Assembly (NCBI RefSeq): GCF_048593235.1
Contig: NC_133617.1
Coordinates: 741,872,958-741,908,011, forward strand
DNA from: Sminthopsis crassicaudata
Lineage: Eukaryota
DNA: 35,054 nucleotides
Reading direction: 5' to 3'
Below are positions 1,215-33,215 of this stretch, piece by piece. Each line of letters begins with the position of its first letter. Position 1 is the first letter of the stretch. The notes under the pieces are model-generated. The model worked only from the letters and a program-made list of their open reading frames with translations. It ran no database searches and had not been told where the DNA came from. The translations under genes were made by a program, and so were the position numbers.

Positions 1215-2040
1215 GTTGCTAGAACTGGATGGATCTCAGAGGTCATCTGGCCCGAACCCTTTGATGGGGTCTTCAGGGTTGGGTGTGGTTAACAGAGGAA
1301 CTGGTAGAAAATAACCCCTGAGGCAGGCAGGAGAGAGATAGCTCCTACCTTTGGGGAGGTCTGAAATCCAAGCTCTGTAAACCCCAGAAACCCTCCCTCT
1401 GTGTCTCTAGCAGTCTGCCCTTGCCATGCCCTATCCCAGTCATGTCCTGGAGCTTCCAACTTCCCTCTAGAATCTGCTCACAGCCATCCCACGGCGGCTG
1501 CCCCCCTTGGGTCAGTCCCCCGGCTCTCTGCCCGGTGGGCTTTCCCCTTCCCCCATGCCTTGCATGTCTCCCCCTGAGCCCAGTAGGCCCTCACCCCATT
1601 TCTCCCAGCCCTTTTAGGGGCCGAGTCCTTTCAGGGTTTGGTCTGCCAGCCAAGGGTGAGCCTGACCTCTGGGGGGGTTCCCTTTCCCCTGGGTAATTAG
1701 TTGTGAGTTCCACTGAGGGCCTTGGCCCTCACACGCTCTAGTTCATATTCACCATTCCCGGTTCCTACTGTGTCCCTCCATTTTGTCTGTCACTCCTTCC
1801 CCTAAATAAATGCTCCAAAAACAGCCGGCATTGTGACTCCTTCAGGTGCCGACCCCACCTTTTGGGGGCTGCCATCATCGGGTGTCTACGGCACCCACAT
1901 CATGTTGGTGTTGAACCCAACATCCATAACGGTCATTTTACAGATGAGGAAACCAAGGGTCAAAAAACTGGGACCTGCCCGTGGGCTTAGCCAGTGTGGT
2001 AGAGATGAGAGTCCCAGCTTTCCGCTTCAGGTTCTTCCCA
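1215..2040 (-). mobile_element. MIR-like SINE split by an LTR (pieces ~1215-1261 and ~1932-2040)
   Basis: ctcagaggtcatctggcccgaaccct and cattttacagatgaggaaaccaagg are normally adjacent parts of the MIR/CORE consensus. Confidence 0.6.
1262..1902 (+). mobile_element. ERV LTR (solo or orphan 5' LTR)
   Basis: Terminal inverted repeat TGATG...CATCA, ~640 bp length, AATAAA at 1805-1810 about 90 nt from the 3' end, and insertion inside a MIR. No clear TSD. Confidence 0.65.
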
Positions 2041-2991
2041 CCCTGGAACGTTGCCTTCAGACTCACGCTCAAAAAATAATTGTGAGGAGATATTTTGAGG
2101 AAGAAAAACCAATCTTACGGTCAGAGCAGGGGTTTTTGTTGTGACTCTGCCCCTCTATCCTTGTTCTTCCCTCCATTTTCCCACGTGGTGATGACCCAGC
2201 CATGAGAAAAAGATGGGGGGAGATATTCCACAATGACATCTTTGATTTCGCATTGCCTTTCTGATGAGGGTCACGACCTGTGCTTTTTATGAGCAAACTT
2301 AAGGAATCAGCAGCTGTCAAAGATGGTGTAAATCTTTGGGAGAAATTGAATTTATTCTGCAGTCCTGCCTAGGAGAACCGCGGCAGTGGACTTGGGTCAT
2401 CCAGTGCTACATTCTAAGTGGAGCGGTGAGAAAGAGCTGTCGAGCCGGCCTAAGTGGGCCGGACAGGGGCCTCCTAGGGGAAGGAGAACCGAAAAGGGCT
2501 CCAGGACCCAAGTGGTCCCTTCTGGCCTCCGGATCATTTCTGAAATTCCGTGCTGCCATAGTTGTTTCTTTTCATTGAGAAAAGGTTCCCCTTGTACTTC
2601 TAAGTCAAACATAGGGCCAGACAGCCGTCACGAAGCTGAAGGTGCTCCGTGGAAGAGGTAAGAGGGGCTGGGGCTGAGGGATTTAAGGGGGAAGTGGAAG
2701 CTCTTTATTTTGTGACCAATAATGATCCTTCTGAGCCAATATTTAATTCTCCTTAAATTAAATGATTTATTACACTTATATTATCATATATAATATAATA
2801 TATTAATTACAAACAATCATTTATTTATTTATTTATTTAATTGAGCTAAATTTGTAGTTTAATGCAAAGAACCCATTGTGGTAGTTTAGCTGTGTGATCT
2901 TTGGCAAGTCACAGATAAATGAAAAAAACCATTAGGTCTCAGAGTTGAAATAGATGATCTCCAAGACTTCTTTCAACCTATTTTTTGAGCA

Positions 2992-3170
2992 GTATTTTTT
3001 TTTTTTTTTTAGTTAAGAAAAACATTTTAAAGCACAAACTTAAAGTTGTTTTAAGTTTTTCACGTTCTCTCCTTCCGTCCTTTCCTCCACGCTGCCCAAA
3101 GAAATTGCAAAAAAAAGACCTCTTGCAAATATGTCTAGTTATGTAAAAAAAATCCCCCCATTAGCCATGC
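2992..3170 (-). mobile_element. Old L1 3'UTR fragment
   Basis: A poly-T run is followed by a C/T-rich block and sequence resembling marsupial L1 3' ends (cctcttgcaaatatg...cccccattagccatg). Confidence 0.5.
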
Positions 3171-3252
3171 GAAGGCCCCCTTTCTAGGAGTTAGGCTCTA
3201 AGGCCTTTAGCATCCAGGATCCCCCAAAGAAAAGGAGACAGAGGAACCTTTC

Positions 3253-3271
3253 TGACCACCAGAGGGCGACG
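3253..3271 (+). promoter_or_regulatory. CTCF motif 1
   Basis: tgaCCACCAGAGGGCGacg matches the CTCF core CCNCNAGRKGGCR. Confidence 0.65.
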
Positions 3272-3333
3272 TGCAGCTGGTCTGCCCAAAATTCAAGCAT
3301 TTAAAGGTAGAATCAAATAGATGTAACCAGCCT

Positions 3334-3352
3334 CGACCACCAGATGGCACCC
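3334..3352 (+). promoter_or_regulatory. CTCF motif 2
   Basis: cgaCCACCAGATGGCACcc matches the CTCF core, in the same orientation as motif 1 and 81 bp downstream. Confidence 0.65.
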
Positions 3353-3689
3353 TGGAGTCAGCCTGACCAGCATCTCTCTGCATTTATTCTCTTTGTTGGA
3401 GACTTGTGCCTCATTTCCCAGTCTTGCTTCCTCTGGCCCACCCTGGCCCCTCCAGCCAGTTCCCCACCTGGGGTCTCTGTACCAGGCCCTTTCCGTGGTG
3501 ATGGTTAAGCCAATCGGGGCTCCTCCCGTCCTGGAGCCCGGACCTGCCTTGGCACCCTGGGGGGAGGCGCTGAACCCCGCGGCTGCTTTCTGGTTGGCAC
3601 TAACTCTGTCCTGGACACAAGCCAGCCCTTCCTTGTCCTTGCTCGCTCCCATCTCCCAAACAGCTCCCGCAGCCTCCCAAGGCTCTCTG

Positions 3690-3925
3690 TGTTACGTGCC
3701 GTCCTTGGTTTTGCTTTTAGCCCTGCCTCTGTGTGACCTCACTTGGGGTTTTCTTGGCAGAGATGCTGGAGCGCTTTGCCATTTCCTGCTCCAGCTCACT
3801 CTATACTTGAGGAAACTGAGGCAAGCCAGGTTAACTGACTTGTCCAGGGTCACACTGCTAGGAAGTGTCGGGGCCAGATTTAAACTCAGGAGCATGAGTC
3901 TGCCCGACTGTAGGCCCAGCTCTGC
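3690..3925 (-). mobile_element. MAR1-like CORE SINE
   Basis: ttggggttttcttggcagagatgctggag...gaggaaactgaggcaagccagg...gggtcacactgctaggaagtgtc is the reverse MAR1 pattern. Confidence 0.75.
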
Positions 3926-4309
3926 CTCCACTATGGAGGGAGGCGTATTTTACCCTACCCATTTACTTAAGAAAGTTGGGAAAGTGCAAATGAAGACCTC
4001 AAGGCTAGGTTGAAAGAAAAAGTGGGGAAAAGAGGCCAAGAAAATCAGGAATAGTTAAATGCCTTTTGGGGTTGGTGATCTTGCTTCCTTGTTTCATTTT
4101 TGATCTGTTTGTCCATTTCTGCATTTTCTAGCCCACTTTGATTTTTTTCTCGTACATTTTGGAACTATTTCCCAACTTGTTCATTTACAGTGTCTCCTGT
4201 TACATTTTTCCTTTATCTAGAACTTTTATTTTCTTGTTTCCCTTTCCATTAGGCAGAGCTGGAAAAGTTTTAATTAAAAAAATCTATTTGGAACAATATT
4301 AAAAGTTAT

Positions 4310-7330: not shown

Positions 7331-7460
7331 NNNNNNNNNNNNNNNNNNNNNNNNNNNNNNNNNNNNNNNNNNNNNNNNNNNNNNNNNNNNNNNNNNNNNN
7401 NNNNNNNNNNNNNNNNNNNNNNNNNNNNNNNNNNNNNNNNNNNNNNNNNNNNNNNNNNNN
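7331..7460. other. Assembly gap (130 N)
   Basis: Run of N. Confidence 1.
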
Positions 7461-7790: not shown

Positions 7791-9544
7791 CTCCCTTGAA
7801 CACCAGGGAGAATGGATTTGTATTCAGTGATACCCTGTGGAACCTTGGGGTGACCCTCCTTTGGGCCTGAGGATTCAGGGGCTCGTACTGTGTAGTGATG
7901 AAGAAACTGGAAGAAATGGTGGCTCCTGTGGCAAAGAGCCCCTTGGGGTGCTCCTCATGGTGATCTCACCCCTTTCCCCCTTTTTCCCATTGTGGCTGTG
8001 TGGAAGCAGGATTGTCTTGGGCAGGTTCAAGAGCTGGGAGTGGGGCGGGAGGAAGGCTGGCTGTCCCGTTTCCCAAGCAGCCGTGAGCATGTGGCCCTTT
8101 CGGAATACTTGGGAATACTTTGAGGAGTCCAAGTGCCTTGCGCGTTAGGGACTCCAGAGCTCCCCGGAGGTCCCACCGGCTTACACAGCAGCATCCTCAG
8201 TGTGTGCCCGAGGAGCGGTGGCCAGTGGCCATGGAAGTGCCCACTCTGAGAGCAGAGGGACAGACTGAGGACAAGTGGACGAGGATGGAGACTTAGAAAG
8301 GCGGTTTTGTGGTAGAGGGGAGCTCCAGGTTTGTTCCCCAGAGGGAGTTTCCAGGTTCAGCAGAGAGCTACCTCCAGAGGGGTCTTCAGGTGGACTCTAC
8401 ATGGGGAGCAGACTTTTAGTGCAGGAGATACAGGTGCCTACTACCAGTGGAGTCAGGGTAGAGCCCCCCTCCCCATGGATGTTAGGTACATTTGTGGGAG
8501 AGGCTGCCTTAAGAAAGGAAAAGGAATATTCTGTGCTGACTATTTTTACTACACCATCTGTACAAATACCTATTTGAAAGCTAATTATTATGCTTGGCTG
8601 ATTGTTAGTGTGGCGTACACCAGTGGGGGCTCAGGAGCCACAGTATTGGAAACAGCCTCTTGGGGTTACCCTGAGGATTCATTCTGAGGAGCCCTGTCAG
8701 GAAGCATGAGTTGGGATGGTGTAAATTCAGAGTATCATGAGAGATTGGGAGTCTACACAGATGCTCTGCAGCTGGATCCAGGCTGGCCACAGGGTGAAGG
8801 AGGAGCTCTTCAACAGGAGGTAGTGTTCCATTTGAACTTACTCTTCCGAAGAACTTCAGGTGGAATGGGGAGAGTGTGCCCCTGAAGTAAGTGTGCTCGT
8901 GCATGTGTAAATATGTATGTGTGTCCTTGTGCTAGCTGTGAAGCAAACACCCTTTTTATCTAATTTTTTATTTTTATATATTTATTTATATTTTATATAT
9001 TTATTTTTGTATAATTTTTATATAATTTGATATTAATCGATTAGAAGGACCTGCAACACTGGTCACTATTGTTTAACAGGAGTGACCCCGCCAGAATAAG
9101 GGCTTGACCTAAGGACATTTGAAAGACTCTCTGACCCCCAAGAACACCCGTAGAAGTCTCAGATGGAGATGGAGCAAGCCTCAGCTCTGGAGAGGGAGGC
9201 TGGAGCACCTGCTGCACCCGAATGAGGGGGGACTGGCCAAGAACACTAGGGGGGGTGAGAAAAGGCCCTGAACCGGACTTCTGATCTGAGTGATAATCAA
9301 GAACTGAGAAATGACAGAATTACTTAACGTTTATCTTGTTCTCTATTTTCCAGAATCATTTTCAGGCTCTGGAGAATGGATAGGAATGGTTGAGAGACTC
9401 ATGACCCAAGACAAGGGAGATGTTGAGAGATCATTCTCTCCTGCTTCCAGATCTGAGTGAACTTATACCCCAGGGGGCCAAAAAATGGCTGAGCTGCTGC
9501 AGGGGAATCTTTGAAGGGATGGTGAGAACAGCTTGGACACAGCC

Positions 9545-10620: not shown

Positions 10621-11731
10621 TAATAACAACTAACATTTAGAGGGTGCACTAAGGTTTGTGAAGTTCAACAACCTGGGAGCATGGCCTTGGGACCATACTC
10701 GGGAGCTGATCCCGCCCTTCCCCTTGCCCTTTTACAGTTAGGTCCATCCACTTGCACTCAGCAACCCCGCTGTTTGCCTTGGGATTTAGTTAGCCCCCTC
10801 TTAAACACCTCATAAGATGGGGGAAGACCTGGGAAAGGACCTGCCTGCCTTCTGTCGATTGGACTTTTGGACGTGACTTGGGCTGGATATAAGGTGACTT
10901 TGATGGAATGATATCCCCTCAAAACAAAAACAGGGGTGAGAAAGAAAATTGCATTGGAAGAAAGGAGGGGGAGATTGAATTGGACAGATTATCCCGCATA
11001 AAAGAGGCATGAAAGAGATATCATAATGGAGGGGAAAATGAAGGGGTGATGGGCAAAGCTTAAACCTTCCTCTCATCAAAGTAGGCTCAAAGAGGGAATA
11101 CCATTACACTTAATAGTTCAGAAATCTATCTTATCCTATAAGGAAGTAAAAAGGGATGTGGAGAATAGAAAAGGGAGGGAAAACTGATAAAAGGAAGAGC
11201 TTATTGAGGAAGAAGTAAAACAGTTTTGAGAAGGGAAAGGGTAGGGAATAAGAAAGGGGGATAAATAAGGGGAAAATAGTATGGAAGGAAATACACAGTT
11301 ATCATAACTACAAATGAGAAAGGGATGCTCTCACCCATAAAACTAAAATACAAAGGACAATGGATTAAAAACCAGAATCTACAATACTTTGTTTACAAGA
11401 AACACATTTGAAGCAGAGAGATAGACACAGGATAATGGTAGGGGTTGGAGCAAAATTTATCGGCTTCAGCTGAAGCAAAGAAAACAGGAATAGCAATTGT
11501 GATCTCAGACAAAACAAAAGCAAAAAGATCTCATTAAGAGAGATAAGGAAGGAAACTACGTCTTGCTGAAATGTGCCAAAGACAATAAAGTCATATCAAT
11601 AGTAAACATATGTACCAACTGATATAGCATCTAAATTTTTGAAGAAGTTGAATGAGTTATAGAAGAAAATTGATAATAAAACTATACTAGTGGGGGACCT
11701 CAACTTTCCCCTCTCAAAACTAGATAAGTCT

Positions 11732-13070
11732 TTTTTATATATTCAGATTTTAAAAACAAGTTTATAAAACATATATTGCATGTTGTATATAATATATGAG
11801 GACTGGATAGTACAAATTTATGTTCACAGTTTGACGTGACAAAATATCATTATTGAATTCCTATTGATCTACCAAAGTAGAAACAGTGAAGTTACATAAA
11901 ATACTCACATCCTTAGGAAGAAAGGTTGCCAAAATGTTTCATTATTTGCAAGTTATATTAATGAATGCTAAACACCTTTTACCCATTCATTCTTATTAGC
12001 TTATAGAATATTTTGCATTTATTAAAATATCTGCATAATTTACACAAGTATTAAAGTACTATAAAGTAATATTCTGCTATATTGGCAAGTATGGTTTAAG
12101 AAATGCTAAACAGAAATATTACTTTAACCCTCTAACATTAAGTAAAATAAATAGAAAAAAAAGAGGGTAGTATTTGTAAAACATAGCATTGTTGTAGCCC
12201 TCATTTAATCTGTGTAAAATGGCTTTATTTTAGAAAGAATTTCCGGTCATTTTAGAAGTTGTTCACTTGACTGAAGAGAAAGAAGACAATATACTCTGAT
12301 CAACTTTATGTCCTTCAGGGATTTTTCAAGAACTATGATCTATTTTTCAAACAAGCCAAATCACTGCCAAACCTGCTTTCCTCAAAGAGATTGTCCATAA
12401 AAATAATCACAAAAATGATCACAAATGACAAACAGTGCTATACAGTATCAGCAAAATGCAGATGAGTCATTTTTAAAAATTTCACATCTAGTTCTCCTAA
12501 GGATCTTTTTTAAGGCTCTTGAGAACCTTCTGCTAATTTAGCACCTCTTTGGTTGTATGCAATATCTATTCTGATAATATATTCCCTAACCCAAAAGTCC
12601 ATTAGAAAGTTCATGCCCATTGAAGAGGTAGATTCCCATTTTAAAACTCTAATGTGAGACATATTTATTGTTAATTTCCTGTCTTCTTCCCTGTGACACA
12701 CAAGGAATCTGAGAAATCATTTAGCAAGTAGAATTTTCAAAAGAATTCCATGTGAACAAACAATCGTGGTTGATTAAGGATATTGTTACTAAAATGACCA
12801 TTGAGAGTGATAGGATATATAACGCAAAAATATGTTCAAGAGCATTTCAAGATTATGCTGTATTTGAATCCTTCCATAATAAATAGCTTCGAATCACCGA
12901 GAGACTAGAATTTTCATCAATGAAAATAAAATACATTATTTATAAAGGAAATTTTGTAAAGGACCAAATAACTAAACTAAACAAAAGACAAGAGAGAGAA
13001 ACATGGGAATGCACAATCATGTCTCAAGGTTGTTTTCTTTTTTTGAAGTTGATCAGTTGTTGATAAATAA
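11732..13070 (-). pseudogene. 1.34-kb non-repeat, AT-rich retro-insertion (3'UTR retrocopy or orphan transduction) inside L1
   Basis: Flanked by tagataagtct (11721-11731) and tagataaatct (13071-13081), an 11-bp TSD with 1 mismatch. There is a short T tract at the left end and an ATCT/AA target site. It has no recognisable TE or long ORF. Confidence 0.6.
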
Positions 13071-13283
13071 TAGATAAATCTAACAAAAAAATAAACAAGA
13101 AGTTAAGAAATGTTAGATACGGTAGCTCTCTGGAGAAACTGGAATGGGAATGGAAATTTTTTCTCAGAAGTACACAGAACCTGCACAAAAATTGACTATA
13201 TGTTAGAATATAAAAACCTTATAACCAAATGCATAAAAGCAGAAATAGTAAATGTATCCTTTTTAGATTATAATGCAATAAAA

Positions 13284-14144
13284 TTATTTTTTACTTTAAA
13301 ATTTTTTTATTAAAGTTTTTTATTTACAAAACATAAGCATGGGTAATTTTTCAACATTGACCCTTGCAAAACTTTCTGATCCAAATTTTTTCCCTCCTTC
13401 TTCCCACCCCTTCTCCTAGAAGGCAGTAGTCCAATTCATGTTAAACATGTTAAAATATATGTTAAGTCCAATATATGTATACATATTTATATAGTTATCT
13501 TTTTAAAAGTTTCTAATTAATTAATTAATTAAAATTTTTACACAAATTTTATGCATAGATAATTTTTCAGCATTGACAATTGCAAAACCTTTTGTTCCAA
13601 CTTTTCCCCTCCTTCCCCCCACCCCTTCACCCAGATGGCAGGTTGCTAATATATGTTAAATATGTTAGAATTATACAGTTATCTTGCTGCACAAGAAAAA
13701 TTAGATCAAGAAGGGAAAAAAAAACTGAGAAAGAAAACAAAATGCAAGTAAATAACAACAAAAAGAGTGAAAATACCATGTTGTAATCCACACTCAGTTC
13801 CCACAATTCTCTCTCTGGGTGTAGATGGCTCTTTTCATCACTCAACAAATGGAATTGGTTTGAATCATCTCATTGTTGAAGAGAGGCATGTCCATCAGAA
13901 CTGATCACTATATGATCTTGCTGTTGCCGTGTGCAATGATCTCCTGGTTCTGCTCACTTCCCTCAGCATCAGTTCCTGTCAGTCTCTCCAAGCCTCTCTG
14001 AAACCATCCGGCTGGCCATTTCTTATACAACAATAGTATTCCATAACATTCATATACCATAATTTATTCAGCCCATCAATTGATGGGCATCCATTCAGTT
14101 TCCAGTTTCTAGACACCACAAAAGGCTGCCATAAACATTTTGCA
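13284..14144 (-). mobile_element. L1 3' fragment (ORF2 C-terminus and 3'UTR) inserted into the older L1
   Basis: ORF 13979-14203 ...FVVSRNWKLNGCPSIDGLNKLWYMNVMEYYC...FREAWRD. TSD tgcaataaaa lies at 13274-13283 and 14141-14150. Confidence 0.88.
13501..13670 (-). mobile_element. Second, very short L1 3' end nested within the previous L1 3'UTR
   Basis: A new T/AT-rich tail and a second copy of the cattgac...tccccccacccc...ggcagg block are flanked by ttatatagttatct (13487-13500) and ttatacagttatct (13671-13684). Confidence 0.65.
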
Positions 14145-16420
14145 ATAAAAACTATATTCAATAATGGACAATGGAAAGACATTAAAAGTAATTGGAAATT
14201 CAATAATTTAATCTTAAAAAAACAAGAGGGTCAAAGAACAAATTATAGAGACAATTGATAATTTCATAAAATTATCACAAAAAACAAGACAGCCTACCAA
14301 AATTTATGGAATGCAGCCACAGTGGTATGTAGGGGGAAAATTATAGCTCTAATTGTTTACATCAATAAAGTAATTGAGAAAAAGGAGATCAATGAATTGG
14401 ACATGCAACTAAAAAAAAACTAGAAAAAAGAACAAATTAAAAATCCCCCATTAAACACCAAATTAGAAAACTTGAAAACCAAAGGAGAGATTAATACAAT
14501 TGAAAGTAGGAAAACCGTTGAACTAATAAATAAAACTAGAAGTTGGTTTTATGAAAAAAATCAATGAAACAGACAACTCATTGGTTAATTTGATTAGAAA
14601 AAAGAGAAAACAAAATTACTAGTTTCAAAAATGAAAGGGGTAAGTTCACCACAAATGAAGAAGAAATTAAAACAATTATTAGGAGCTATTTTGCCCAATT
14701 ACATGCCAATAAGTTTGACAATTTAAATGAAATAGATGAATTTCTATGATGATATAAACTGCTCAGATTAATAGAAGAAAAAAATACTTAATCCAATCTT
14801 AGAAAAAGAAATTGGAAAAGCCATTAATGAACTTCCTAAGAAAAAATCCCCAGGATCAGATGAATTCACAAGTGAACTCTATCAAACATTTAAAGAACAA
14901 ATTAATTCCAATTCTATATAAGCTATTTGAAAAAAATAGGTGGAATCCTGCCCAATTCCTTTTATGACAAACATGGTGCTGATACTTAAATCAGGAAGAC
15001 CCAAAACAGAGAAATTTCCCTAATGAATATTAATGCAAAGATTTTAAATAAAATACTAGCAAGGAAATTACAGCCACATATCACAAGGATCATACATTAT
15101 GAGTAGGTGGGGTCTATACCAGAACTGCAGGGCTGGCTCAATATTAGGAAAATATCAGCATAATTGACCATATCAATAACAAAACCATTAGAAATCATAA
15201 AACTATTTCAATAGATAAAGAAAAAGCCTTTGACAAAAAACAGCACCCATTTCTATTAAAAATACTAGACAGCATAGGAATAAATAGAGCTTTCCATAAA
15301 ATGAATATTTTACCTGAAAGCATAAACAAGAATTATTTGTAACCGAGGTAAGCTAGAATCCTTCCCAATACAATCAGGAGTGAAGCAAGGATACCCATGA
15401 TCACTTTTGTTATTTAATATTGTACTAAAAATATTAGCTACAGCAATAAGAGAAGAAAAAGAAATGAAAGGAATTAGAAGAGGCAATGAGGAAACAAACT
15501 TTTCAGTCTTTGAAGATATGTTATGCTTAGGAAATCTCACATAATCAACTAAAAATTACTTGAAATTATTAGCAATTTTGGCAAAGTTGTAAGATACAAG
15601 ATAAACTCACAGTATATCATCATTAGTATGTTACTAACAAAGCCCAGCAGCAAGAGATAGAAAGAGAAATTCCATTTAGATAACTGTAGACAATATAAAA
15701 TTTCTGCCAAGGTAAACCCAGGAACTATGTGAATACAACTATAAAACACTTTCCACCCAAATCGAACCAGATACAATTAGAATTGGAAAAATGTTAATTG
15801 CTCATGGGTAGGCTAAATCAATATAATAAAATGACAATTCTATCTAAATTTATTTATTCAATACCATGCAAATCAAACTTTCAAAAACTCATTTTATAGA
15901 ACTAGAAAAAAATAACAGGATATATAGAACTAGAATAAATAATATAAATATTAAAAAATCAAACTAAAAAATTAAAAATTCATCTGGAAGTTCAGGGATA
16001 TCAAGGGGATCAATGAAAAAAAAATGTGAATATAGGTTATCTAGCCATACCAGATCTCAAACTGTATTATAAAGTGGCAATTATCAAAACAAAACTGACT
16101 AAGAAGCAGAATAAATTAGGTATAAATTACATTATAGCAAATGACCAGAGTAATCTAGTATATACGATAAACCCAAAGACTTAAGATTTTAGGACAAAAA
16201 AACTTCATTATTGATAAAAGTGTTATTACTAGACTCTTATGATTCTTCTTTTCCCACCATCCATACTTTGTCCTGCACCTACCTCATGGTAAGCCTTATC
16301 TGGGTAGTACTTAGACTCTTTCTTGGGGATTTAGTGAAGACTCCCTATTTTTTGTTTTGCTGCATATCTCATTGGATCAAATAAAATAAACTTTCTTACT
16401 CAATGGACAAATTTAAGATT

Positions 16421-21913: not shown

Positions 21914-22322
21914 NNNNNNNNNNNNNNNNNNNNNNNNNNNNNNNNNNNNNNNNNNNNNNNNNNNNNNNNNNNNNNNNNNNNNNNNNNNNNNNNNNNNNNN
22001 NNNNNNNNNNNNNNNNNNNNNNNNNNNNNNNNNNNNNNNNNNNNNNNNNNNNNNNNNNNNNNNNNNNNNNNNNNNNNNNNNNNNNNNNNNNNNNNNNNNN
22101 NNNNNNNNNNNNNNNNNNNNNNNNNNNNNNNNNNNNNNNNNNNNNNNNNNNNNNNNNNNNNNNNNNNNNNNNNNNNNNNNNNNNNNNNNNNNNNNNNNNN
22201 NNNNNNNNNNNNNNNNNNNNNNNNNNNNNNNNNNNNNNNNNNNNNNNNNNNNNNNNNNNNNNNNNNNNNNNNNNNNNNNNNNNNNNNNNNNNNNNNNNNN
22301 NNNNNNNNNNNNNNNNNNNNNN
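21914..22322. other. Assembly gap (409 N)
   Basis: Run of N. Confidence 1.
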
Positions 22323-31265: not shown

Positions 31266-32171
31266 AAACACTGGATAGATAGCATTGGCTTGGAAGTTAA
31301 GACTGAGATGTAGAGTGCTTTAATTCAATTACTCTGCTAAGCATTTTTCATATAGAATACTGGGTGGGCTGTTGATCAGAAAGGCAAGCTATTATATTTC
31401 CCATCCACTTTGTGTGGGCAGAGTTCTCTTGGGGCTTATTGTCTTTCCTGAAATCCCCTCCCATTTGGAAGCATGGTTTCTTTTAAAATTGGCTTTTAAA
31501 AATTGGGGGTTGTGGTGACTGACTTCTCATTTACCTCAGACAGGCCCCTCTTTGATTACTGATATGTTTTAATTCTAGAGCCCTGGAGAATATATTTTCT
31601 CTGTAAATGAAGTTTGTCCTTTTGCCCAGCTGGCCAACATGTGGCTCTGTGAATATAGAATATTAATATTTATTCTTTGGGTAAAAAAGAGTGGAGGCTG
31701 CAAACCGGTCAGTAATAGGGGAGGCCGAGGTGTTTGGAAGTTGAATCTGTGAAAGGTTTTTTTGGCCAGCCTAGGCCAGTATCGTGACCAAATGACTTCT
31801 GGGTCCTGGAACGGTACATATGGACGTGAACGTGAGAGGACCGACTCCATGTAGAAAGTGCACTGAGTATGAGACCGCTTTCTCCAAAGGCCGGTGATAT
31901 AAGGGAAAGTCTGACCCTGAAATGTTGGGGATAAATGTTTGTACTTCCATTCCTGTTATATATCTTCTAAATAAATATGCTTTTATAAAAAACTAATTGA
32001 TAATTAATTGACTAAATGGCTGGTAGTGAGCAGTGGGGAAAATCACTTGGAAGAGTGACTTGAGGGGACCAGTAGAGAAGAGACATCCACGTTCCCTCAG
32101 GAGCCACCCTGGCACACAGAGAGGGAGACAGGGCAGCCGATAAGAGGAGCTCAAAGGGTCCTTACCACATG

Positions 32172-33215
32172 GTTGTTTCCCTCCGTTCTCGAAGAGGATC
32201 AAAATGACATCACTAGGTCAGAGTCAAGCCAGTGTCTGACCTGCAATCAGCCAACAAGAGCTGTCACAGGGTGGCACACGTGAACATTTGGTGGCTTCTC
32301 TAACTCTGACTAATTCCGTTCTGCTCATGGAGCACGGCCCCTTCTCCGATGTGCTTGGGGGTCTCGGGCCAGTGTCTCCCATGTCACACTCCCAAGCGCC
32401 TTGAGAGTGACCTTGTTGCACCTTTCCTGACTGCCTGTGAGCGCTTGCCCCTGTGAGTTCTCTTGGCAAGCGTACATTCGGACAACGTGGCCCGACCAGT
32501 GGAGTTGCACTCTCTGCAGTAGTTGGAGCGCTGGGCAGATGAGTTGGATAAAGCACCTCAGTGTCCAGTACCTTCCCCTGCCTAGGATCTTCCTAAGACA
32601 AATGGACGCGATTCCGTCCCGGCCTGGCGCTGGTGACTGTCCGGTATCACAATCAGTGCCCCGGCTCTCAGACCCTCAGTTGGGTCAGCCTCCCCTCCTT
32701 TTCTTCCGAGCCTCCCAAAGGCTGAGCCAGCTCTGGCAGTGAGTGCATCAACCACGTGTACGCTGGCATGCATACTGTCAGTGCAGGAGAACTTGCCCTC
32801 AGCGTTCACACCCGCTCCAGTCGCTGTAACCGAGGGTTCTACGTGTGGCTGGCCTGGCGCTGGCTGGTGGAAGACTCGCGTTTTCTCGGGGTCCATTGTT
32901 GGACAAAGTCAGTGCGAGCAGCAGGGAATCCACCCATATGTCATTGCGTCTCGGCCTCGGAGGCCACAGTGAGGCACGCTCCTCACCAACAAGAGTCCCG
33001 GACCGGCCTCCTGCACTGCGGCCTGGCTCGGAGCCTTTCCGACCTGGAGACTCTGGGGTCCTGGGGGAGCGACTTCAACGCCTCATTGGCGGCATTTGGC
33101 AGCATGACTGGAAACACCGTGGAGCAAGCGCCCGGCCTTGGGCCGCTCCTGGGACACTGGGAAGCTCGAGAGCTGCCCGAGACCCCGCGCAGGAAGGCCG
33201 TCATGAAACTGACAC
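32172..33215 (-). mobile_element. RTE LINE (RT C-terminal half to 3' end), degenerate and GC/CpG-rich
   Basis: Minus-strand peptides QLHWSGHVVRM...VTWETLARD, ARAGSAFGRLGRK and STVFPVMLPNAANE resemble RTE ORF motifs (QLRWAGHVVRM, ARASSAFGRL, MFSAMLSDAFNE). The 3' end reads gttctcgaagaggatcaaaatgacatcact. Confidence 0.9.

What the first reader, a model, noticed from the sequence alone, without database searches (positions are those of the whole stretch)
11721..13081. 1.34-kb captured cellular sequence inserted in the L1 endonuclease coding region
Seen: the host L1 reads ...LSKLDKS, is interrupted, and resumes at DKSNKKINK. An 11-bp TSD with 1 mismatch flanks the insert, and the target ATCT/AA resembles the L1 TTTT/AA site. 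The insert is AT-rich, has no recognisable SINE or LINE in an otherwise repeat-dense window, and has no long ORF. The minus strand reads like a 3'UTR, with an internal AATAAA near 12225, TATAAA ~30 nt from the end, and a short decayed A tail. Inference: a 5'-truncated retrocopy of an mRNA or lncRNA 3'UTR, or an orphan transduction. The parent gene is unidentified.
Basis: partly seen in the sequence, partly recalled or inferred. Interest (0 to 1): 0.7.

Follow-up and report, generated by a model that had tools for sequence, protein, structure and literature searches.

The report
Dead KLF3 3'-UTR retrocopy in L1
The 1.34-kb insert is a decayed copy of a stretch 2.1-3.4 kb behind the stop codon of the KLF3 gene, sitting between an 11-base duplication inside an old LINE-1; it was likely copied from the tail of KLF3 messenger RNA by LINE-1's enzymes, probably tens of millions of years ago, and is likely an ordinary functionless processed pseudogene.

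Summary
Real but ordinary. Window 11732-13070 is a minus-strand copy of the distal 3' UTR of KLF3, whose intact gene lies on contig C6. It aligns colinearly: 82.7% identity over 1,281 columns, 18 indels, 13 of 13 parental CpGs lost. The 11-bp TSD is genuine: 12 of 19 sibling L1 copies show the empty site exactly. The copy ends 14 nt behind the parent's AATAAA, with a 5-6 A remnant. No L1 lies in the parent UTR, so orphan transduction, a new repeat family and a viral origin are not supported. It is best read as a 5'-truncated, UTR-only processed pseudogene made by L1 in trans, about 20-60 Myr old (rough). The genome holds at least four further KLF3-derived pieces; one is spliced and ends at a proximal poly(A) site, one sits behind an LTR. 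Two copies share TTTAAA where the parent has AATAAA, hinting that today's signal is derived. Expression and orthologues were not tested. The scan has found the same kind of object in other genomes (e1-7855497, e1-9278541).

The parts
10884..11731 (+). Host L1, 5' part (5'-truncated; upstream-of-ORF2 stretch and start of ORF2, endonuclease-like, frameshifted)
   Evidence: Six sibling loci stop aligning at 10884-10891 although they extend further; translation; 6,167 candidates in the genome
11721..11731 (+). [quoted passage not shown]
11732..11736 (-). Remnant poly(A) tail, 5 A (6 with the TSD edge), not templated by the parent
   Evidence: alignment
11737..13058 (-). Copy of KLF3 3' UTR, about nt 2100-3440 after the stop codon (parent G000:C6:29127705-29129037, + strand)
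   Evidence: 1059 of 1281 aligned columns identical, K2P 0.20
11749..11766 (-). Poly(A)-signal region: TATAAA (11761-11766) and TTTAAA (11749-11754); the parent has AATAAA at the second place
13059..13070 (-). 5' junction: poorly aligned 12 nt, of which about 5 look untemplated; no inversion
13071..13081 (+). Right TSD copy; followed by AA, so the inferred first nick reads ATCT/AA on the + strand (degenerate TTTT/AA)
   Evidence: consensus from PMC2912911 passages
13082..16200 (+). Host L1 continued (rest of endonuclease-like part, linker, RT), many stops and frameshifts; right end approximate
13274..14150 (-). Separate nested antisense insertion of L1 3'-end type between a perfect 10-bp TSD (13274-13283 / 14141-14150), with a second tail piece nested in it; not part of the retrocopy

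Best explanation
The insert is a decayed, minus-strand copy of the distal KLF3 3' UTR between an 11-bp target-site duplication, likely made when L1 ORF2p took a polyadenylated KLF3 mRNA in trans, nicked an A/T-rich site inside an already inserted L1, and reverse-transcribed about 1.33 kb before stopping; it likely has no function. Shown: source, colinearity, TSD against empty sites, end behind a poly(A) hexamer, short untemplated A run, CpG loss and indels. Inferred: the RNA intermediate (no intron lies in the copied part, so intron loss cannot be seen), L1 as the enzyme, a germ-line event, age of roughly 20-60 Myr, and neutrality. The host L1 is only the landing site: it is antisense to the insert and lacks its 5' promoter.
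For: One full-length source, C6:29127705-29129037, query 3-1322 of 1339, E 0. It lies 2.1-3.4 kb behind the stop of a five-exon gene matching possum KLF3 at 91-100% per exon. Alignment ends 14 nt behind AATAAA, followed by A5 and the TSD; the parent has only 7 A in the next 20 nt, so internal priming is not favoured. A second copy on C2 ends at the same base within 2 nt. TSD exact in 12 of 19 sibling L1s. Decay: 126 transitions, 96 transversions, 18 indels, 13 of 13 parental CpGs gone, 12 of them by C>T and/or G>A. A spliced KLF3 retrocopy with a 16-bp TSD and A tail (L033) shows that KLF3 mRNA was a substrate in this lineage. Hallmarks as in PMC5470649 and PMC2912911.
Against: No intron loss can be shown. 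The A tail is only 5-6 nt and the nick site matches TTTT/AA at 4 of 6 positions. The parent's poly(A) site is inferred from motifs and copy ends, not RNA. Identity to the parent is uneven, 72-89% per 100 columns, rising to the 3' end (chi-square p 0.025, Spearman 0.57); constraint on the parent explains this, but constraint on the copy was not excluded without an outgroup. RTE elements were also active in marsupials (PMC5322556, PMC4408412 passages), so the enzyme is not proven.
Confidence: 0.9

Rival explanations
1. A retrocopy that was later put to use: read through from a neighbouring promoter, it would give sense RNA (miRNA or RNA-binding-protein decoy) or antisense RNA (siRNA or piRNA source) acting on KLF3.
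For: Known in principle (PTENP1 decoy, oocyte endo-siRNAs; PMC5470649 section 10). The 3' half is 81-89% identical to the parent.
Against: Only 2 of 1,309 31-mers are shared with the parent; all parental CpGs lost and 18 indels; divergence is of the same order as the host L1 from its siblings (median K2P 0.217, n=19); the host L1 lacks its promoter; no Pfam hit in 108 of 108 window ORFs of 72 codons or more, so no host gene was identified, though short exons would be missed.
Confidence: 0.03
2. Capture without TPRT: a KLF3 DNA or cDNA fragment patched into a staggered double-strand break inside the L1.
For: Degenerate nick site, very short tail. Two other KLF3 pieces (L031, L034) have no tail and no TSD, so other capture routes occurred in this genome.
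Against: A clean 11-bp TSD without target loss, an end right behind a poly(A) hexamer shared with the C2 copy, and an A run on the side that TPRT predicts.
Confidence: 0.05
3. Orphan 3' transduction by an L1 upstream of the source, an unannotated repeat family, or an endogenous viral element.
For: None found.
Against: The source is the KLF3 last-exon region with no repeat match between stop codon and segment; 3 matches in the genome including self (lower bound); 1,320 of 1,339 bases are explained by a host gene, with no ORF over 68 codons.
Confidence: 0.02

Closest known systems
5'-truncated mRNA retrocopies (processed pseudogenes) made by L1 in trans (PMC2912911, passages; PMC5470649, passages plus section 6 part 1 and section 10)
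   Same: TSD of 10 bp or more, poly(A) remnant, intact 3' end, 5' truncation, a few extra bases at the 5' junction, TTTT/AA-like target. Opossum alone has 1,992-3,036 retrocopies (PMC5470649 Table 1).
   Different: Holds no coding sequence at all, so protein-based surveys (the usual approach per PMC5470649 section 6) would miss it; intron loss cannot be tested.
Tailless retropseudogenes (PMC5322556, passages)
   Same: L1-type TSD; 5'- and 3'-truncated mRNA pieces are described there; may fit the side copies on C2 and at L034.
   Different: This copy ends behind a poly(A) hexamer and keeps a short A run, so it is the tailed kind.
L1 3' transduction, orphan type (PMC5470649, passage)
   Same: Unique non-coding sequence, A tail and TSD with no L1 body attached.
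   Different: The source is a gene's own UTR with no L1 upstream within the last exon.
KLF-family retrocopies: KLF14 from KLF16, Zfp352/Zfp353 from KLF18 (PMC3820594, passages)
   Same: A KLF mRNA as template.
   Different: Those keep a coding frame; this one has only UTR and is decayed.

Membership tests
L1-mediated processed pseudogene, 5'-truncated | Colinear match to the exonic sequence of a parent gene at another locus | tested here: met
   that the whole segment is exonic (3' UTR) is inferred from its place behind the stop codon
L1-mediated processed pseudogene, 5'-truncated | Target-site duplication | tested here: met
   11 bp, 1 mismatch; single in 12 of 19 sibling L1s with exact overlap
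L1-mediated processed pseudogene, 5'-truncated | 3' end at the parent's poly(A) site | tested here: inconclusive
   Ends 14 nt behind AATAAA, same end as the C2 copy; no RNA evidence
L1-mediated processed pseudogene, 5'-truncated | Untemplated poly(A) tail | tested here: met
   5-6 A not in the parent; short, so weak on its own
L1-mediated processed pseudogene, 5'-truncated | L1 endonuclease target TTTT/AA | tested here: inconclusive
   ATCT/AA, 4 of 6
L1-mediated processed pseudogene, 5'-truncated | Loss of introns | not testable with these tools
   The copied part lies behind the last intron; shown only for the sister copy L033
L1-mediated processed pseudogene, 5'-truncated | Neutral decay, no function | tested here: inconclusive
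   CpG loss, indels and K2P 0.20 fit; no orthologue or expression test
Orphan L1 3' transduction | Source lies directly 3' of a donor L1 | tested here: not met
   No repeat match in the 3.45-kb UTR against 44 loci; nearest L1 match to the window's L1 is over 30 kb upstream, beyond the gene
Unannotated interspersed repeat family | Many dispersed copies | tested here: not met
   3 of 3 candidates: self, parent, one 115-bp piece; counts are lower bounds
Endogenous viral element | Similarity to viral coding sequence | not tested
   No TBLASTX run; the insert is explained by a host UTR and has no long ORF

The most novel reading that the evidence does not exclude
The copy is not dead: transcribed through the old L1, it makes RNA antisense to the most conserved end of the KLF3 3' UTR and tunes KLF3 in the marsupial germ line or embryo, a UTR-only retrocopy turned regulator. 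A milder and likelier reading (about 0.5, interest about 0.3): the KLF3 copies in this genome are a dated fossil series of the mRNA, recording a proximal and a distal poly(A) site and showing that the present distal AATAAA arose after two of the copies were made.
Probability: 0.03. Interest if true: 0.55.

Novelty: new member of a known kind. Interest (0 to 1): 0.15.

Why it matters
Little on its own: therian genomes hold thousands of retrocopies. Its use is as a fossil. It fixes a likely distal 3' end of marsupial KLF3 mRNA (UTR about 3.44 kb), suggests that KLF3 was expressed in the germ line or early embryo while L1 was active, and is a homoplasy-poor presence/absence marker for marsupial phylogeny. 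With its sister copies it would record two poly(A) sites and a change in the distal signal. It also shows that UTR-only retrocopies, invisible to protein-based surveys, can be recovered from junction anatomy.

Tried and rejected
No reads were laid, so expression, the parent's poly(A) site and orthologous insertions stay open. PDB search with KLF3 exon 3: 0 hits. Pfam on 108 window ORFs: 0 hits; on 16 host-L1 fragments: 2 weak RVT_1 hits and 2 likely chance hits. Rfam: 0. TSD search at the C2 piece gave only an A/T-rich 11-mer with 1 mismatch and no tail, at L031 and L034 nothing convincing. That the C2 piece derives from the window copy: not favoured, since each has 8-9 private columns of 121, but a very early secondary copy is not excluded. 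L035, L037, L039 match only the zinc-finger exon and were set aside as probable paralogues (not tested); L038 (68%) is unresolved. Literature: KLF3+pseudogene+retrotransposition gave 3 papers, none by listing on a marsupial KLF3 retrocopy (passages of one read); two searches gave 0, searches gave 4 and 3; the term '3 UTR' scored 0 occurrences throughout, so those searches are weak. PMC1360558 is not held. No supplements were read.

Full report
Observation. The host frame ends ...LSKLDKS at 11731 and resumes DKSNKKINKK behind the insert. The junction repeat is 11721-11731 / 13071-13081, 11 bp with one mismatch. I tested it against empty sites: the top 19 non-self matches of the left flank (of 40 scored, 6,167 candidates) were aligned to both flanks, and in 12 of 19 the flanks overlap by exactly 11 bases; the other 7 carry indels or insertions of their own or a misplaced right alignment. 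So the duplication is a true TSD with no loss of target. The insert is 1,339 bp, 29.5% GC, with no frame over 68 codons and no Rfam match.

Source. A genome search gave 3 matches from 3 candidates: self, C6:29127705-29129037 (query 3-1322, 79% by BLAST) and a 115-bp piece on C2. Upstream of the C6 match lie five coding exons matching brushtail possum KLF3 at 91-100%. Exon 3 alone found 52 proteins, 41 or more named Krueppel-like factor 3 or KLF3 and none named another KLF, best 98% to wallaby and possum; the four larger exons map together only at this locus. The organism is therefore a marsupial; 3.24 Gb in 8 contigs fits a dasyurid karyotype (recalled). The copied segment is nt about 2100-3440 behind the stop codon, on the gene's strand, which is the window's minus strand.

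Anatomy. Read on the minus strand: TSD, about 5 untemplated bases, colinear UTR without inversion, end 14 nt behind the parent's AATAAA, five A, TSD. The parent's next 20 nt hold 7 A, so internal priming is not favoured. With the A tail at the left junction, TPRT predicts a first nick on the + strand after the TSD, ATCT/AA, a 4-of-6 match to TTTT/AA (PMC2912911 passages).

Decay and age. 1059 of 1281 aligned columns are identical (K2P 0.20 by global alignment, 0.16 by a local aligner that absorbs mismatches in gaps), with 18 indels and 13 of 13 parental CpGs lost. The host L1 differs from its 19 siblings by median K2P 0.217, range 0.189-0.253, about 0.1 per lineage, and the insert must be younger than the host. 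At the 3' end a three-way comparison gives 8 columns private to this copy, 9 to the C2 piece, 6 to the parent and 2 all different, of 121. The copy's own branch is thus about 0.07-0.12. At 0.0045 per Myr (a fast, SINE-derived rate; PMC3403934 passages) that is some 16-27 Myr; at about 0.002 per Myr (recalled) 35-60 Myr. L1 was active through about 50 Myr of dasyuromorphian history (PMC4408412 passages). This is a rough inference. Identity rises towards the 3' end (p about 0.03), most simply from constraint on the parent.

Mechanism. L1 ORF2p, acting in trans on polyadenylated KLF3 mRNA, nicked an A/T-rich site in a resident, 5'-truncated L1, primed on the tail and stopped after about 1.33 kb; second-strand cleavage 11 bp away made the TSD. 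Source, TSD, end point, tail and decay are shown; RNA intermediate, enzyme, germ-line timing and neutrality are inferred. Landing in an L1 needs no special cause: L1 is 16.9% of the Tasmanian devil genome and nested integrations are common.

Sister copies. A search with the whole last exon gave 10 of 10 candidates: the gene, this copy, the C2 piece, L033, L031, L034, L038 and three zinc-finger-only matches. L033 (C3:450.98 Mb) joins exons 4 and 5, runs 144 nt into the UTR, ends 17-18 nt behind ATTAAA with a long A tail and has a 16-bp TSD with 1 mismatch: a textbook processed pseudogene that records a proximal poly(A) site. L034 is UTR nt 30-207 at K2P 0.07 without tail or TSD. L031 is UTR nt 458-1645 at K2P 0.08, directly behind a complete LTR-like element (TG...CA ends, 40 scored of 5,305 candidates), joined where 5 of 13 sibling LTRs show a primer-binding-site-like stretch; LTR plus UTR replace about 205 bp of an L1 (7 of 9 siblings give 201-208) with no TSD. 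It may be an LTR-element capture of KLF3 RNA. An outgroup is needed.

Rivals. A regulatory role is known for some retrocopies (PMC5470649 section 10), but only 2 of 1,309 31-mers are shared with the parent, the host L1 has no promoter and no host gene was found (0 of 108 ORFs). Orphan transduction fails because the 3.45-kb UTR matches none of 44 repeat-rich loci. A repeat family fails on copy number. No read-level test was obtained, so expression, the poly(A) site and orthologues remain open; the run listing is not used as evidence.

Known and novel. This is a new member of a known kind: a 5'-truncated, UTR-only processed pseudogene (PMC5470649, PMC2912911). My searches found no paper on a marsupial KLF3 retrocopy (weak, see Tried and rejected). 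The scan's notes hold two near-identical cases in other genomes (unchecked AI notes, not support) and none near this place. Interest 0.15.

Noticed in passing
L031:1058-2700 (G000:C3:195759379-195761021): A younger KLF3 3' UTR piece (nt 458-1645, K2P 0.08) fused directly behind a complete LTR-like element at the place of its primer-binding site, with no second LTR, tail or TSD, replacing about 205 bp of an L1. Possible LTR-element capture of a cellular mRNA by template switch; arguably odder than the finding itself.
   Followed up: partly
L033:1369-1869 (G000:C3, about 450.977 Mb): Spliced KLF3 processed pseudogene (exons 4-5 joined, 144 nt of UTR, A tail, 16-bp TSD with 1 mismatch) that records a proximal poly(A) site behind ATTAAA; it too sits inside an L1.
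   Followed up: yes
L003:1501-1615 (G000:C2:242290527-242290641): 115-bp copy of the extreme 3' end of the KLF3 UTR, same end point as the window copy, no clear tail, only an A/T-rich candidate TSD; shares TTTAAA with the window copy against the parent's AATAAA.
   Followed up: partly
L034:1501-1674 (G000:C1:745149684-745149857): KLF3 UTR nt 30-207 at 92% identity, without tail or TSD, 3.3 Mb from the window; route of capture unexplained.
   Followed up: partly
L038:1501-1979 (G000:C3, about 440.186 Mb): Very old KLF-like retrocopy (68-71%) with zinc fingers, about 240 nt of UTR-like sequence and an exon-3-like piece close by; KLF3 or a paralogue not resolved.
   Followed up: no
window 13274-14150: A second, antisense insertion of L1 3'-end type in the same host L1, perfect 10-bp TSD, with another tail piece (about 13300-13520) nested inside it.
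   Followed up: partly
L004:7937-7950 (KLF3 3' UTR, G000:C6): A palindromic X-box-like motif (RFX-type, recalled) in the UTR, overlapping an AATAAA at UTR nt 1553; kept in L031.
   Followed up: no
window 32001-33000, 8001-8500, 1501-2000, 3501-4000: GC-rich patches (56-59%) with no Pfam-matching ORF; no host gene identified in the window. N runs at 7331-7460 and 21914-22322.
   Followed up: partly
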